Below, piece after piece: positions 18,587-21,247 of a DNA stretch of 64,000 nucleotides (positions are counted from its first letter, which is position 1; every line of letters begins with the position of its first letter). The notes under the pieces were generated by a model. The model saw nothing but the letters and a program-made list of their open reading frames with translations, had not been told where the DNA came from and searched no databases. Made by a program: the position numbers and the translations under genes. The DNA is taken from NCBI GenBank assembly GCA_042571125.1, contig JBHPFU010000001.1, positions 259,230 to 323,229 of the forward strand, given 5' to 3'. Source of the DNA: Nanobdellota archaeon. GTDB taxonomy: Archaea > Nanobdellota > Nanobdellia > Woesearchaeales > UBA10107.

Positions 18587-19456
18587 ATGGAAAATTGGAG
18601 AAAAGCTGGAAAGATAGCTAAAGAAGCATTAGAATACGGAAAAACTTTAGTTAAAACAGACGCTTTGCTTATTGAAGTTGCAAATAAAATAGAAGATAAG
18701 ATAGTTGAACTTGGAGGACAAATTGCATTTCCAGTTAATATTTCTTTGAATCATGTTGCAGCACATTATACTCCAGCACCAAATGAAGAAACAAAGTTTA
18801 AAGACGAGATTGTTAAGTTAGATGTAGGCGTACATGTTGAAGGTGCAATAGGAGATACAGCATTAACAATTGATTTAAGCGGAAAAAACCAAGAATTAGT
18901 CCAAGCTTCAGAAGATGCTCTAAACCAAGCAATAAAAATCATAAAACCAGGAATAACTTTAGGAAAAATAGGAAAAGCAATTGAAGATGCGATAACAAAA
19001 CGAGGTTTTGTTCCAATCAGAAATCTTTCAGGGCATAGCATGGATATTTACAACTTGCATGCAGGACTTACAATACCTAATTATGATACAGAAGATGATA
19101 CTAAACTAGAAGAAGGAATGATCATAGCAATAGAACCTTTCGCAACAACCGGTTCTGGGATGATTGAAGAAGGAAGTAATGCAGAAATATTCATGTTAGA
19201 ACAAGTTAGGCCATTAAGAAATATGACAGCAAGAAAGATACTGAAAGAAATTGAATCATTTAACGGACTGCCGTTTTGTTCAAGAGTTCTTGTAAAGAAA
19301 TTTAATCTAATGCAGGTAAGAATAGCATTAAAAGAAATGAGCAATATAGATATGCTTAAACTTTATCCGCCCTTACCTGAAGTAAATAAAGGTCTAGTCT
19401 CACAAGCAGAGCATACCATCCTTATTACAAAGGACGGCTGTGAAGTTCTAACTTAG
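18587..19456 (+). CDS. map: Methionine aminopeptidase type II
   Basis: AFPVNIS, AAHYT, KLDVGVHVEGAIGDTA, NLSGH, AIEPF, SQAEHT. Confidence 0.97.
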   Translation: MENWRKAGKIAKEALEYGKTLVKTDALLIEVANKIEDKIVELGGQIAFPVNISLNHVAAHYTPAPNEETKFKDEIVKLDVGVHVEGAIGDTALTIDLSGKNQELVQASEDALNQAIKIIKPGITLGKIGKAIEDAITKRGFVPIRNLSGHSMDIYNLHAGLTIPNYDTEDDTKLEEGMIIAIEPFATTGSGMIEEGSNAEIFMLEQVRPLRNMTARKILKEIESFNGLPFCSRVLVKKFNLMQVRIALKEMSNIDMLKLYPPLPEVNKGLVSQAEHTILITKDGCEVLT

Positions 19457-19599
19457 CTTTTTTTGATCTTGTCTTGTATTTCTTTCAATGCTGCTTGGAT
19501 TTCTGCTTGCTTAACACCTTCGTTTGGTGTGCTTGCTGTTGTTTTCCCTTTCTTTTCCATACTTTTTAGCATTGTTTCCACAAAGTCTTCTGCTGACAT
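19453..19599 (-). CDS. Small protein (48 aa) downstream of hisS, not in ORF track
   Basis: MSAEDFVETMLKSMEKKGKTTASTPNEGVKQAEIQAALKEIQDKIKKS, preceded by a strong GGAGGTGA RBS at the hisS stop. Confidence 0.75.
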   Translation of the reverse strand: MSAEDFVETMLKSMEKKGKTTASTPNEGVKQAEIQAALKEIQDKIKKS

Positions 19600-19613
19600 C
19601 ACTTTTTCACCTC

Positions 19614-21131
19614 CTACATGAACCTCAACCAAGGTTCTTCACTTTCTGAACCTAATTTATCAATAGGAACTTTTTCCTCTTTTCCAGTTGCCATATCCCT
19701 CACAACAACTTTCCCGAACTTAACTTCGTCAGGACCTACTATTATGATTTTTTTAGCTTTGATAGAATCCGCATAGCTAAACTGTTTGCCAAGCTTACGG
19801 TCTACCAGATCAACTTCAACTTTGAAATTCTTTCTTAGCTGTAAGGCAATCTCTTCTGCCTTTTCATTCATATCTTTGTTTACAGGAGCGATATAGTAAT
19901 CCGGGCCAAGATCGATCTTTGGTTTTACTCCTTTTTGTTCTAATAGAATTCTTAATGTTTCATAGCCCATTCCAAATCCAGTTGCCGGGGTTGGCTCGCC
20001 TTTGAACTGTTCTACCATCTTGTCATAGCGGCCACCACCAGCAATGGCGCGGAGTTTTTCTTCTTTATCAAAAATCTCAAATACAGTTCCTGTGTAGTAT
20101 GCAAGGCCACGGGCAACCGAAAGATCAACTTTAATAAAATCTAGGTTTTGTTTTAGATTATCAATCACTTCTTTTAGTTCTTGGTAACCTTCTTTTGCTA
20201 AATCCGAAGTTGGTTTTATTTTTTGGAGAATATCTAAAGGTTTTCCTTTCAATTTAATTATATTTTTTACTTTTTCAATGTCAGAATCTACTAATCCTAG
20301 TTTTCTTAGTTCTGATTCGAGCTCATCTTCTGTTATTTTCTCGGATTTATCGATTATTCTGATTACATTATCAAGAATTTTACTGTTTACTACTTCTAAT
20401 AATAATCCTTGTAATAATTTTCTGTTGTTTACCTTAACAACAATATCATTTTCTGTTAATTTTAGATTTTTTAATGACTCTAATGCAAGATTTATTACTT
20501 CCGCATCCGCTTTTGGAGATTGTGAACCGAACAGCTCACAACCATACTGATAGAATTCCCTTAATCTTCCTTTTTGCGGAGCTTCATAACGCCACATTCT
20601 GGTAATGTAAAACCATTTGACCGGTTTAACTAGTTCCCTTTGCTTCGTTACAAACATTCTTGTCGCTGGAATTGTAATATCAAATCTTAATCCTAGTTGT
20701 TCATTGCCTTTTTGTTCTAACTTAAAGATTTGATCTGCTACTTCTTCGCCACCTTTTGCTGTTAATAGTTCAAGGGTTTCAAAGCTTGGAGTCTCTACTT
20801 CTTTAAAATTAAAGCGAATCGCTGTTTTCTTTAGTTTTCTGAAAATACTTTCTTTTAGAAGTTTCTCTTCTGGGTAGAAATCAACTGCTCCCTTGACTTT
20901 TTGGTATTGATTCGTTTCTTGTTTTATTACTGCTCGTATCTCGTTTTCTACGTTTTGCTCTAGTTGTTTAACCATTACAGGAGGTGCTCCCTGCTCTTTG
21001 GCTAAGATCAGTCGTCTTACTGCGTCCCTTACTGCTTCTGATTTGCTTGGGTATATATCTCGGCCTACTAAAGTATCGAGTTCCCTGATTAAACCGCTTG
21101 TCAGGCGTATTTGAATTGTTTCCATTACCAT
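19614..21131 (-). CDS. hisS: Histidine--tRNA ligase with N-terminal ribbon-helix-helix domain
   Basis: KGAVDF, LRFDITIP, WRYEAPQKGRLREFYQ, RGLAYYTG, GGGRYD; N-terminal METIQIRLT...ELDTLV...YPSKSEAVRDAVRRLI RHH pattern. Confidence 0.95.
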   Translation of the reverse strand: MVMETIQIRLTSGLIRELDTLVGRDIYPSKSEAVRDAVRRLILAKEQGAPPVMVKQLEQNVENEIRAVIKQETNQYQKVKGAVDFYPEEKLLKESIFRKLKKTAIRFNFKEVETPSFETLELLTAKGGEEVADQIFKLEQKGNEQLGLRFDITIPATRMFVTKQRELVKPVKWFYITRMWRYEAPQKGRLREFYQYGCELFGSQSPKADAEVINLALESLKNLKLTENDIVVKVNNRKLLQGLLLEVVNSKILDNVIRIIDKSEKITEDELESELRKLGLVDSDIEKVKNIIKLKGKPLDILQKIKPTSDLAKEGYQELKEVIDNLKQNLDFIKVDLSVARGLAYYTGTVFEIFDKEEKLRAIAGGGRYDKMVEQFKGEPTPATGFGMGYETLRILLEQKGVKPKIDLGPDYYIAPVNKDMNEKAEEIALQLRKNFKVEVDLVDRKLGKQFSYADSIKAKKIIIVGPDEVKFGKVVVRDMATGKEEKVPIDKLGSESEEPWLRFM

Positions 21132-21178
21132 GGTGATTCACTAACGTTACAGACGTAATGTTTATAGAAGTATTTAAA
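21123..21178 (-). promoter_or_regulatory. hisS promoter (TTTAAATA at 21178-21171) with two palindromic operator-like sites
   Basis: CATTAC-catg-GTGATT (21123-21138) and AACGTTAC-agac-GTAATGTT (21143-21162); centres 22 bp apart. Confidence 0.6.
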
Positions 21179-21247
21179 TCTTTCGAATCGCGCAGATTAA
21201 GCTAATTTTTAAGAATTTAAGGGCTAGAAGGGCTGAAACCGCAAAAT

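What the first reader, a model, noticed from the sequence alone, without database searches (positions are those of the whole stretch)
19614..21178. HisRS fused to a ribbon-helix-helix DNA-binding domain, with phased operators on its own promoter
Seen: the first ~45 aa form an RHH pattern (TIQIRL strand; YPSKSEAVRDAVRRLI) in frame with a complete HisRS through a helical linker. Between the TATA box and the first codons lie two related palindromes, consensus CRTTAC-N4-GTRAT, 22 bp (two helical turns) apart. Established: RHH dimers bind tandem phased sites, HisRS is a homodimer, and PutA is a precedent for an RHH-enzyme autorepressor. Inference: an aminoacyl-tRNA synthetase acting as its own transcription factor, possibly sensing His or tRNA-His.
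Basis: partly seen in the sequence, partly recalled or inferred. Interest (0 to 1): 0.8.

Follow-up and report, generated by a model that had tools for sequence, protein, structure and literature searches.

The report
HisRS fused to DNA-binding repressor domain
In a group of tiny uncultured archaea, the enzyme that loads histidine onto tRNA carries a small DNA-binding domain at its front end, and matching binding sites lie on the gene's own promoter, so the enzyme very probably turns down its own gene.

Summary
Window 19614..21131 (-) is one 505-aa frame: a ribbon-helix-helix (RHH) domain (aa 1-46), a helical linker (aa 47-76) and a complete HisRS, the only one found in this 803-kb genome. The fusion is not an artefact. 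34 database proteins share it. So do 12 of 201 sampled genomes of the same order (Woesearchaeota by source names), and at least 6 of 7 genomes of the window's own family.

CATTAC-type hexamers are spaced 10-11 bp from just after the TATA box into codons 2-3, which explains the conserved 'MVM' start (ATG GTA ATG). The same operator precedes stand-alone ~80-aa RHH genes of the same family. It is missing from 11 unfused hisS starts. A matrix built from 28 other loci ranks the window's hisS promoter first in its genome. Hexamer sequence changes together with the RHH beta-strand. The RHH-linker-promoter cassette sits on two HisRS lineages only 31-38% identical.

Most likely this is a synthetase that represses its own transcription. 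Sensing of histidine or tRNA-His is untested. Six literature searches found no description of it. New variant of a known kind; interest 0.7.

The parts
19614..21131 (-). RHH-HisRS fusion gene, 505 aa, stop codon included
   Evidence: Single open frame. Only hisS-family hit above cut-off in the genome.
20994..21131 (-). Ribbon-helix-helix domain, aa 1-46: strand ~aa 4-10 (TIQIRLT), helix 12-23, helix 30-46
   Evidence: RHH_1 at 25.3 bits when scanned alone. Profile hits to the NikR and ParD RHH domains. AF2 helices at 12-23 and 30-47, pLDDT 93-97 over aa 11-40. Nearly invariant across 30 fused proteins.
20904..20993 (-). Linker, aa 47-76: short Pro-containing hinge, then one long charged helix (aa 52-75)
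   Evidence: AF2 helix 52-75, with low pLDDT at aa 48-54 and 72-81. Aligns with the C-terminal tail of the stand-alone RHH proteins.
19941..20903 (-). HisRS class II catalytic core, aa 77-397
   Evidence: PF13393 over aa 82-392 at 183.9 bits. TIGR00442 over aa 77-489 at 387.7 bits.
19650..19895 (-). HGTP anticodon-binding domain, aa 413-494
   Evidence: PF03129 at 65.7 bits.
21171..21185 (-). Archaeal BRE-like CGAAAGA plus TATA box TTTAAATA. A second TATA-like TATAAA lies at 21161..21166.
   Evidence: Read. The same CGAAA-N2-3-TTTAWATA layout occurs in relatives. A T/A-rich block at -33..-26 is conserved over 29 loci.
21145..21160 (-). Operator site 1: CATTAC-gtct-GTAACG, between the TATA box and the inferred transcription start
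   Evidence: Read. L023 and L030 carry the same arrangement, CATTAC-ctct-GTAATG.
21123..21138 (-). Operator site 2: AATCAC-cATG-GTAATG, spanning the start codon and codons 2-3
   Evidence: Read. GTAATG at +3..+8 is present in 22-27 of 29 loci, column by column. Val codon 2 is GTA in 21 of 22 genes, against 181 of 490 Val codons elsewhere in the same genes.

Best explanation
The gene encodes a working histidyl-tRNA synthetase whose N-terminal RHH domain binds an array of CATTAC-type hexamers on its own promoter and represses its own transcription.

Shown: the domain architecture, its conservation, and the conserved operator that goes with the RHH.

Inferred:
- Each HisRS dimer supplies two RHH chains, which form one beta-ribbon reading head on a flexible helical stalk.
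- Several dimers occupy hexamers spaced one helical turn apart, from just after the TATA box across the transcription start into codons 2-3.
- This blocks RNA polymerase recruitment, so enzyme concentration feeds back directly on hisS transcription.

Origin: the cassette (promoter, operator, RHH, linker) comes from a stand-alone ~80-aa autoregulated RHH gene. It has been joined to two different HisRS lineages.
For: 1. Fusion is real and conserved.
- 34 proteins of 348-523 aa match aa 1-100.
- 12 of 201 sampled genomes of the order have frames of 419-507 aa.
- In the window's family, G025, G150, G220, G277 and G353 plus the window are fused.
- It is the only HisRS above cut-off in the genome.

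2. The RHH is under stronger constraint than the linker: QIRLT and SEAVRD are invariant in 30 of 30.

3. Operator footprint over 29 loci.
- ATTAC at -17..-13: 18-27 of 29 per column.
- ATTAC at -6..-2: 23-28 of 29.
- GTAATG at +3..+8: 22-27 of 29.
- Flanking columns are near random.

4. The operator goes with the RHH, not with hisS.
- It is present at 17 stand-alone RHH genes and at a fused gene of the second HisRS lineage (L053).
- 0 of 11 unfused hisS starts in genomes that hold the stand-alone RHH have two pentamers.

5. Controls.
- 24 of 31 RHH-gene starts against 2 of 94 other ORF starts.
- Codon-2 GTA in 21 of 22, against 181 of 490 elsewhere.

6. The window's promoter is the top matrix hit in its own genome. 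Hexamer pairs are not enriched genome-wide against reversed-pattern controls in 5 genomes.

7. The reading strand and the site change together.
- T[ILMK]QIRL goes with (C/A)ATTAC.
- V[TAV]Q[VA]RLP goes with GTA(C/T)TAC.

8. G025 (99% complete, one contig) and G150 show no second RHH of this family with this query. If this family reads the operator there, the fused protein must do it.

9. Position. The TATA block at -33..-26 puts the start of transcription near -3. This uses the recalled archaeal rule that the TATA box is centred about 26-27 bp upstream. The sites therefore cover the start.

10. N-terminal modules 70-84% identical sit on HisRS bodies only 31-38% identical. The combination has been kept or rebuilt.
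Against: - No binding, expression or transcription-start data exist for any member.
- The window's own operator is the most divergent of the set: matrix score 15.3, against 24-37 for 23 of the 28 training loci, and only one strict pentamer in -25..+9.
- RHH_1 falls just below Pfam's cut-off in the full-length scan (19.6 against 20.5).
- Foldseek gave no match at E <= 0.001.
- The fusion occurs in a minority of the order (12 of 201), so HisRS works without it.
- The sequence co-variation between strand and site amounts to roughly one clade split, and kin are not independent.
- Repression rather than activation is inferred from position only.
- Some fused genomes hold other weak RHH matches that could also bind (G348 has 3 matches).
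- The regulon scan used strict patterns, and the own genome is 80.75% complete.
Confidence: 0.68

Rival explanations
1. The RHH appendage has been re-used for something other than DNA binding, such as tRNA capture, oligomerisation or partner binding, in the way of appended domains of eukaryotic synthetases. On this reading the upstream hexamers are read by another factor or are a relic.
For: N-terminal helical appendages on HisRS exist in eukaryotes (WHEP domain, recalled). No binding data exist. Some fused genomes hold other weak RHH matches.
Against: The operator is as well kept at fused genes as at stand-alone genes. This includes genomes where no other RHH of this family was found with this query (G025, G150). 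The DNA-reading strand is invariant in 30 of 30 fused proteins.
Confidence: 0.1
2. The RHH-HisRS binds the hexamers but activates or fine-tunes transcription rather than repressing it.
For: Direction of regulation was not tested. A few archaeal regulators act both ways depending on site position (recalled).
Against: The sites lie downstream of the TATA box and across the inferred start and the start codon. That is the usual repressor position in archaea (recalled). Small RHH proteins are typically autorepressors (recalled).
Confidence: 0.1
3. The conserved element works in RNA: a CAUUAC/GUAAUG hairpin that hides the start codon, possibly bound by HisRS in the way E. coli ThrRS binds its own mRNA operator.
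For: In many loci the last CATTAC, N4 and GTAATG form a perfect 6-bp inverted repeat around the AUG.
Against: - The universal feature is a direct repeat with 11-bp period, which cannot pair with itself.
- The V-T-Q-V-R-L-P clade keeps the direct repeats but lacks the inverted half in codons 2-3.
- The TATA position implies near-leaderless transcripts that would not contain the upstream arm (plus the recalled promoter geometry).
Confidence: 0.05
4. Artefact: a chimeric assembly or a mis-called start joins a separate small RHH gene to hisS.
For: None found.
Against: The same uninterrupted frame appears in 34 database proteins from several sources. It also appears in 12 of 201 sampled genomes, including a single-contig genome. 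No stop lies between the domains. The one short form is cut by a contig end.
Confidence: 0.01

Closest known systems
E. coli alanyl-tRNA synthetase autorepression of alaS
   Same: A synthetase that binds DNA at its own promoter and lowers its own transcription. [quoted passage not shown]
   Different: AlaRS has no recognisable appended DNA-binding domain. Here a canonical RHH module with its own operator is bolted onto the enzyme. The system is archaeal rather than bacterial. Ligand dependence is unknown here.
BirA, biotin protein ligase and bio repressor (recalled)
   Same: An adenylate-forming enzyme with a class II synthetase-like catalytic fold and an N-terminal DNA-binding domain, which represses an operon linked to its substrate.
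   Different: BirA uses a winged helix-turn-helix domain, regulates biosynthetic genes rather than itself only, and binds DNA on adenylate-driven dimerisation. HisRS is already a dimer.
PutA (recalled) and NikR
   Same: An N-terminal RHH fused to a larger C-terminal functional or sensor domain. The NikR RHH is the best solved-structure match by sequence profile (2bj1 at 3.8e-5, 1q5v at 1.3e-4). By fold, 2caj_A aligns at 1.4 A over 40 residues.
   Different: The C-terminal parts are unrelated: proline catabolic enzymes, or a Ni-binding domain. Those operators are different palindromes.
Small RHH autorepressors and antitoxins (CopG, Arc, omega, ParD) (recalled, except the ParD hits)
   Same: A beta-ribbon dimer reads short repeats set about one turn apart in direct or inverted orientation at its own promoter. 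ParD antitoxins are among the top profile and fold matches. The stand-alone relatives have the RHH-plus-tail layout.
   Different: Here the tail continues into an essential translation enzyme. No co-directional toxin gene is present.
CdrS / aCcr1 archaeal cell-cycle RHH regulators
   Same: Best NCBIfam hit of the domain is CdrS: 28.4 bits for the window and 23-38 bits for the stand-alone forms.
   Different: These scores are far below the 100-bit cut-off. No ftsZ neighbour was seen in the loci examined.

Membership tests
Histidine--tRNA ligase (TIGR00442, class IIa) | Full-length match above the curated equivalog cut-off | tested here: met
   387.7 bits against 286.75, covering model positions 1-405 of 406.
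Histidine--tRNA ligase (TIGR00442, class IIa) | Catalytic core plus HGTP anticodon-binding domain | tested here: met
   PF13393 at 183.9 bits and PF03129 at 65.7 bits. The motif-2 region (RYE..GR.REF.Q) and GGGRYD are invariant or nearly so in A1. The motif names are recalled.
Histidine--tRNA ligase (TIGR00442, class IIa) | Sole copy in the genome, which argues against a HisZ-like regulatory paralogue | tested here: met
   One hit above cut-off in G000. HisZ models score below their own cut-offs. HisG was not found. The genome is 80.75% complete.
Histidine--tRNA ligase (TIGR00442, class IIa) | Aminoacylation activity | not testable with these tools
   Needs an enzyme assay.
Ribbon-helix-helix (CopG/Arc/MetJ, PF01402) | HMM match above the gathering score | tested here: met
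   25.3 bits against 20.5 for aa 1-75 scanned alone. The full-length scan gives 19.6, just under the cut-off.
Ribbon-helix-helix (CopG/Arc/MetJ, PF01402) | Strand-helix-helix topology of about 45 residues | tested here: met
   AF2 predicts helices at 12-23 and 30-47 after an extended N-terminal segment, with pLDDT 93-97 over aa 11-40. Top Foldseek rows are RHH chains at 0.8-1.6 A over 40-46 residues, but none reaches E <= 0.001.
Ribbon-helix-helix (CopG/Arc/MetJ, PF01402) | Homodimer forming a two-stranded antiparallel ribbon | tested here: inconclusive
   The complex prediction returned no verdict. HisRS dimerisation would bring two copies together (recalled).
Ribbon-helix-helix (CopG/Arc/MetJ, PF01402) | Binds repeated short sites at its own promoter | tested here: inconclusive
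   The conserved phased hexamers and their co-variation with the strand fit this feature. Binding itself was not measured.
NikR | C-terminal nickel-binding tetramerisation domain | tested here: not met
   NikR models match only aa 3-47 and score far below their cut-offs. The C-terminal part is HisRS.
CdrS / aCcr1 | Score above the NCBIfam cut-off | tested here: not met
   CdrS 28.4 bits against 100; aCcr1 12.2 bits against 60.
Type II antitoxin (ParD/VapB-like) | Co-directional toxin gene immediately downstream | tested here: not met
   Genes downstream of fused hisS are M24 peptidase, a methyltransferase or unassigned. Stand-alone forms have a convergent, not co-directional, PIN gene in 12 of 17 loci. 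TIGR02606 scores 19.5 bits against 46.2.

The most novel reading that the evidence does not exclude
The fusion is a one-component sensor that ties transcription of hisS to the charging state of tRNA-His. On this reading, synthetase molecules busy with uncharged tRNA-His, or in a particular His/ATP/His-AMP state, cannot stack on the hexamer array. The promoter then opens exactly when charging capacity is short. This would happen in an organism that probably cannot make histidine: HisG and HisD were not found (genome 80.75% complete). The promoter-operator-RHH-linker cassette would be a portable regulatory module that evolution has transplanted between two distant HisRS lineages.
Probability: 0.25. 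Interest if true: 0.85.

Novelty: new variant of a known kind. Interest (0 to 1): 0.7.

Why it matters
How archaea regulate their aminoacyl-tRNA synthetases is largely unknown, and they lack the T-box and attenuation systems of bacteria (recalled). Here the regulator, its operator and its target sit in one gene, so the circuit can be read from sequence and tested with one purified protein and a 70-bp DNA.

It would be a clear case of a synthetase carrying a canonical transcription-factor domain, next to the older and structurally unexplained AlaRS case.

It also shows a regulatory cassette moving between enzyme lineages in genome-reduced DPANN archaea. The half-site and reading-strand pairs are a small natural data set on RHH specificity.

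Tried and rejected
- Complex prediction of two copies of aa 1-75: no verdict. It counts neither for nor against.
- Public sequencing runs: no run held more than a tenth of the sampled words and no RNA holder was listed. Conservation in independent assemblies replaces the read check.
- Foldseek on the domain model: no match at E <= 0.001.
- Wider regulon: exact searches in G000, two pair patterns in 5 genomes and a matrix scan found no second promoter with the array.
- 'The stand-alone RHH regulates hisS in trans': rejected for the 11 unfused hisS starts examined.
- 'hisS was inserted between the RHH gene and its convergent PIN neighbour': rejected, since the downstream genes of 3 fused loci are not PIN.
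- 'Split RHH plus hisS intermediates': the matches with stops are ordinary unfused hisS, and G319 is cut by a contig end.
- Other fusion partners: 35 of 35 longer hits were HisRS. The profile search added one RHH-metallophosphoesterase.
The single-protein scan gave 6 loci, none fused.
- Literature searches listed no paper on an RHH-synthetase fusion. Supplements were not consulted.

Full report
**What is there**

Window 19614..21131 on the minus strand is one 505-aa open frame.
- Its first 75 residues, scanned alone, match Pfam RHH_1 at 25.3 bits against a 20.5 cut-off. In the full-length scan the same match is 19.6 bits.
- Residues 77-489 match the hisS equivalog TIGR00442 at 387.7 bits against 286.75.
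- PF13393 and the HGTP anticodon-binding domain are both present.
- It is the only HisRS-family hit above cut-off in the window's genome, which has 803,570 bp in 10 contigs and is 80.75% complete.
- An AlphaFold2 model built on 30 fused homologues (mean pLDDT 82.5) has helices at 12-23 and 30-46, one long helix at 52-75, then the HisRS body. Confidence is low at 48-54 and 72-81, which suggests a tethered domain.
- A model of the first 75 residues alone gives pLDDT 93-97 over aa 11-40.
- By profile, the nearest solved structures are the RHH domains of NikR (2bj1, 3.8e-5; 1q5v) and ParD antitoxins.
- Foldseek ranks the same proteins first, at 0.8-1.6 A over 40-46 residues. No row reaches E <= 0.001.

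**The upstream sequence**

Read on the minus strand:
- CGAAAGA-TTTAAATA (BRE-like element plus TATA box) at 21185..21171.
- CATTAC-gtct-GTAACG at 21160..21145.
- AATCAC-cATG-GTAATG at 21138..21123. This site contains the start codon.

The two sites begin 22 bp apart.

**The fusion is conserved**

- A search with aa 1-100 returned 34 proteins of 348-523 aa among 174 candidates. All have HisRS domains, and the named ones are 'Candidatus Woesearchaeota' or 'Nanoarchaeota'.
- In an alignment of 30 of them, the RHH is the best-kept part: M3, T5, QIRLT 7-11, Y27, S29, SEAVRD 31-36 and VR 38-39 are invariant.
- In 201 sampled genomes of the window's order, 12 including the window have the RHH in a frame of 419-507 aa continuous with HisRS. 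One of these, G132, is an unpublished genome.
- In the window's own family, G025, G150, G220, G277 and G353 are fused. In G319 the contig ends inside the RHH.
- Searching for longer proteins with the 50-aa RHH gave 41 hits among 101 candidates. All 35 that are longer than 130 aa are HisRS.
- A profile search of 1.84 billion representatives gave 2,353 hits at E <= 0.001. The best 150 are mostly 42-130 aa. Of the 7 longer hits newly scanned, two were HisRS pieces (P0054, P0049), and a third long hit, P0009, was already annotated as HisRS. One was an RHH-metallophosphoesterase.

**The operator is conserved and belongs to the RHH**

- Upstream regions of the 12 fused loci all carry CATTAC-type hexamers between a TTTATATA box and the start.
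- The commonest layout is TATA-N5-8-(G)CATTAC-N4-(G)CATTAC-N-ATG-GTAATG.
- The last CATTAC and the GTAATG in codons 2-3 form an inverted repeat around the ATG. This explains the odd conserved 'MVM' N-terminus.
- 17 stand-alone RHH genes of 65-85 aa from other families of the order have the same promoter layout.
- Anchored on codon 1, the 29 loci show:
  - ATTAC at -17..-13: 18-27 of 29 per column.
  - ATTAC at -6..-2: 23-28 of 29.
  - ATG: 26-28 of 29.
  - GTAATG at +3..+8: 22-27 of 29.
  - A T/A block at -33..-26.
- At least two ATTAC/GTAAT pentamers occur in -25..+9 at 24 of 31 RHH-gene starts, against 2 of 94 other ORF starts in the same loci.
- Valine codon 2 is GTA in 21 of 22 genes, against 181 of 490 valine codons elsewhere in the same genes. 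The third base is therefore held by something other than the protein.
- In 10 genomes that hold the stand-alone RHH, 0 of 11 unfused hisS starts have two pentamers.
- The stand-alone proteins align with the fused N-terminus over their whole length, tail against linker.

**The window's own promoter**

- A position matrix built from the other 28 loci (-19..+9) puts the window's promoter first on both strands of its genome. It scores 15.3; the next hit scores 13.0; 32 positions score above 8.
- This promoter is nonetheless the most divergent member. About 14 bp more separate the TATA box and the ATG. The TATA-proximal pair is inverted, as in L023 and L030, rather than direct.
- Exact searches in the genome found no other CATTAC-N4-GTAATG site or direct pair. 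The looser hits lie inside genes.
- The pair patterns ATTAC-N5-7-ATTAC and ATTAC-N4-5-GTAAT are no commoner than their reversed controls in 5 genomes. Only the hisS promoters carry overlapping pairs.
- I therefore see no regulon beyond the gene itself, within these strict patterns.

**Reader and site change together**

- Loci whose strand reads T[ILMK]QIRL[TSN] have (G/A/C)(C/A)ATTAC hexamers and ATGGTAATG.
- The nine whose strand reads V[TAV]Q[VA]RLP, or a near variant, have GTA(C/T)TAC or GTAATAC and no GTAATG in codons 2-3.
- In RHH proteins the strand is the DNA-reading element (recalled), so this fits direct recognition.
- It amounts to about one clade split and is weak as statistics.

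**A movable cassette**

- A tree of 50 HisRS bodies was built: 40 fused and 10 unfused, quick IQ-TREE with SH-aLRT support.
  - Left out: the truncated P0009, P0019, P0023, P0029 and L030.
  - Left out: the fragments L045 and L046.
  - Left out: the own-genome duplicate L005.
- It has two deep clades split by 100% branches. Fused forms occur in both: 36 fused with 6 unfused, and 4 fused with 4 unfused. Well-supported branches force at least two changes.
- The four fused proteins of the second clade have N-terminal modules 70-84% identical to those of certain first-clade proteins. Their bodies are only 31-38% identical.
- In a 401-genome sample, most listed HisRS are unfused members of that second type. 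Two genomes carry the fused second type: G348, and G210, which is unpublished.
- G348 has the same operator.
- So the promoter-operator-RHH-linker unit has been joined to two HisRS lineages, or one body replaced the other behind it.

**Mechanism**

Shown: the architecture, its conservation, and an operator that travels with the RHH.

Inferred:
- The TATA position puts the transcription start near -3 in most relatives. This uses the recalled rule that archaeal TATA boxes are centred about 26-27 bp upstream. The transcripts would be near-leaderless, the upstream hexamers would be DNA elements, and the array would cover the start.
- A protein bound there should block polymerase recruitment, as archaeal repressors typically do (recalled).
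- Each HisRS dimer would give one RHH dimer, so a 3-4 hexamer array would need several enzyme dimers. That would give a cooperative, concentration-dependent shut-off.
- A precedent for a synthetase repressing its own gene is E. coli AlaRS (passage read in PMC6918089).

Whether histidine, ATP or tRNA-His modulates binding is open. HisG and HisD were not found in the genome, while one PF00977 protein is present. The genome is 80.75% complete, so histidine auxotrophy is likely but not shown.

**Rivals**

- An RNA hairpin hiding the AUG is unlikely. The universal feature is a direct repeat, and one clade lacks the inverted arm.
- A re-purposed, non-DNA-binding RHH is unlikely. The operator is kept in genomes where no other RHH of this family was found with this query.
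- Activation instead of repression cannot be excluded.
- An assembly artefact is excluded.

**Novelty**

- Six full-text searches listed no paper describing an RHH-synthetase fusion. I saw listings only, apart from passages of PMC6918089. Supplements were not consulted.
- The kind is known: an enzyme with a built-in repressor domain, a synthetase that autoregulates, an RHH autorepressor.
- The combination, its operator written into the first codons, and its transfer between HisRS lineages are new as far as these searches go.

**Limits**

- There are no experimental data of any kind.
- Related genomes are not independent samples.
- Two unpublished genomes (G132 as L007, G210 as L054) entered the alignments and counts. 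Removing them leaves 11 of 12 fused loci and the G348 example, and changes no conclusion.

Noticed in passing
L015-L022, L025, L028, L029, L033 (stand-alone RHH loci): In 12 of 17 stand-alone RHH loci, a 141-170-aa gene on the opposite strand overlaps or abuts the 3' end of the RHH gene. All 4 that were scanned are PIN-domain proteins. A convergent RHH-PIN pair is not the usual antitoxin-toxin operon layout.
   Followed up: partly
L027:1840-3156 (+); L031:1860-3155 (+): In L027 the stand-alone RHH gene is followed about 94 nt downstream, on the same strand, by a class IIb synthetase (tRNA-synt_2 plus OB anticodon domain). L031 has a 432-aa gene in the same place that was not scanned. This may be a second link between this RHH family and synthetase genes.
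   Followed up: partly
L026 (G009:C1:91081-91105): A second copy of the three-hexamer array (CATTAC-gtaa-GCATTAC-gata-GTAATG) lies about 86 bp upstream of the hisS operator, in the intergenic region next to a divergent 111-aa gene. It could support looping or control of the neighbour.
   Followed up: no
L014 (G188): This fused locus has three direct CATTAC copies at 11-bp period right after the TATA box, followed by a ~20-nt leader. It starts MMQ rather than MVM. It is another operator layout.
   Followed up: no
window 19453..19632 (-): A 59-aa ORF on the same strand overlaps the hisS stop by 19 nt. It has no Pfam match. It may or may not be a gene.
   Followed up: partly
window 18587..19456 (+) and L066 (G025): A methionine-aminopeptidase-like M24 gene converges on hisS both in the window and in the same-family genome G025. 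Local gene order is kept within the family.
   Followed up: partly
L042, L044, L045: Unfused hisS starts directly after sequence that looks like the 3' end of a tRNA gene, with a T-arm-like GGTTCGAATCC-type motif. No tRNA scan was run to confirm this.
   Followed up: no
L059 (G380): Unfused hisS directly follows a gene whose C-terminus looks like histidinol dehydrogenase; the match spans one in-frame TAA (851-aa frame figure). Some members of the order therefore seem to keep histidine biosynthesis genes next to hisS.
   Followed up: no
G056 (L036 and L040): One genome holds two unfused HisRS genes, one of each deep lineage.
   Followed up: no
P0130; P0046: P0130 (337 aa) is an RHH of this family fused to a calcineurin-like metallophosphoesterase. 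P0046 (2,308 aa) shows 13 RHH-like stretches and a scatter of weak, repetitive Pfam hits; it may be a repeat or low-complexity protein.
   Followed up: partly
L051, L052 (Desulfurococcales records); L047 (Aenigmatarchaeota record): Related RHH domains occur fused to an unassigned ~210-aa C-terminal region in Desulfurococcales. They also occur as a 48-aa stand-alone protein starting MVMETIQIRLT in an Aenigmatarchaeota genome, without CATTAC repeats upstream.
   Followed up: no
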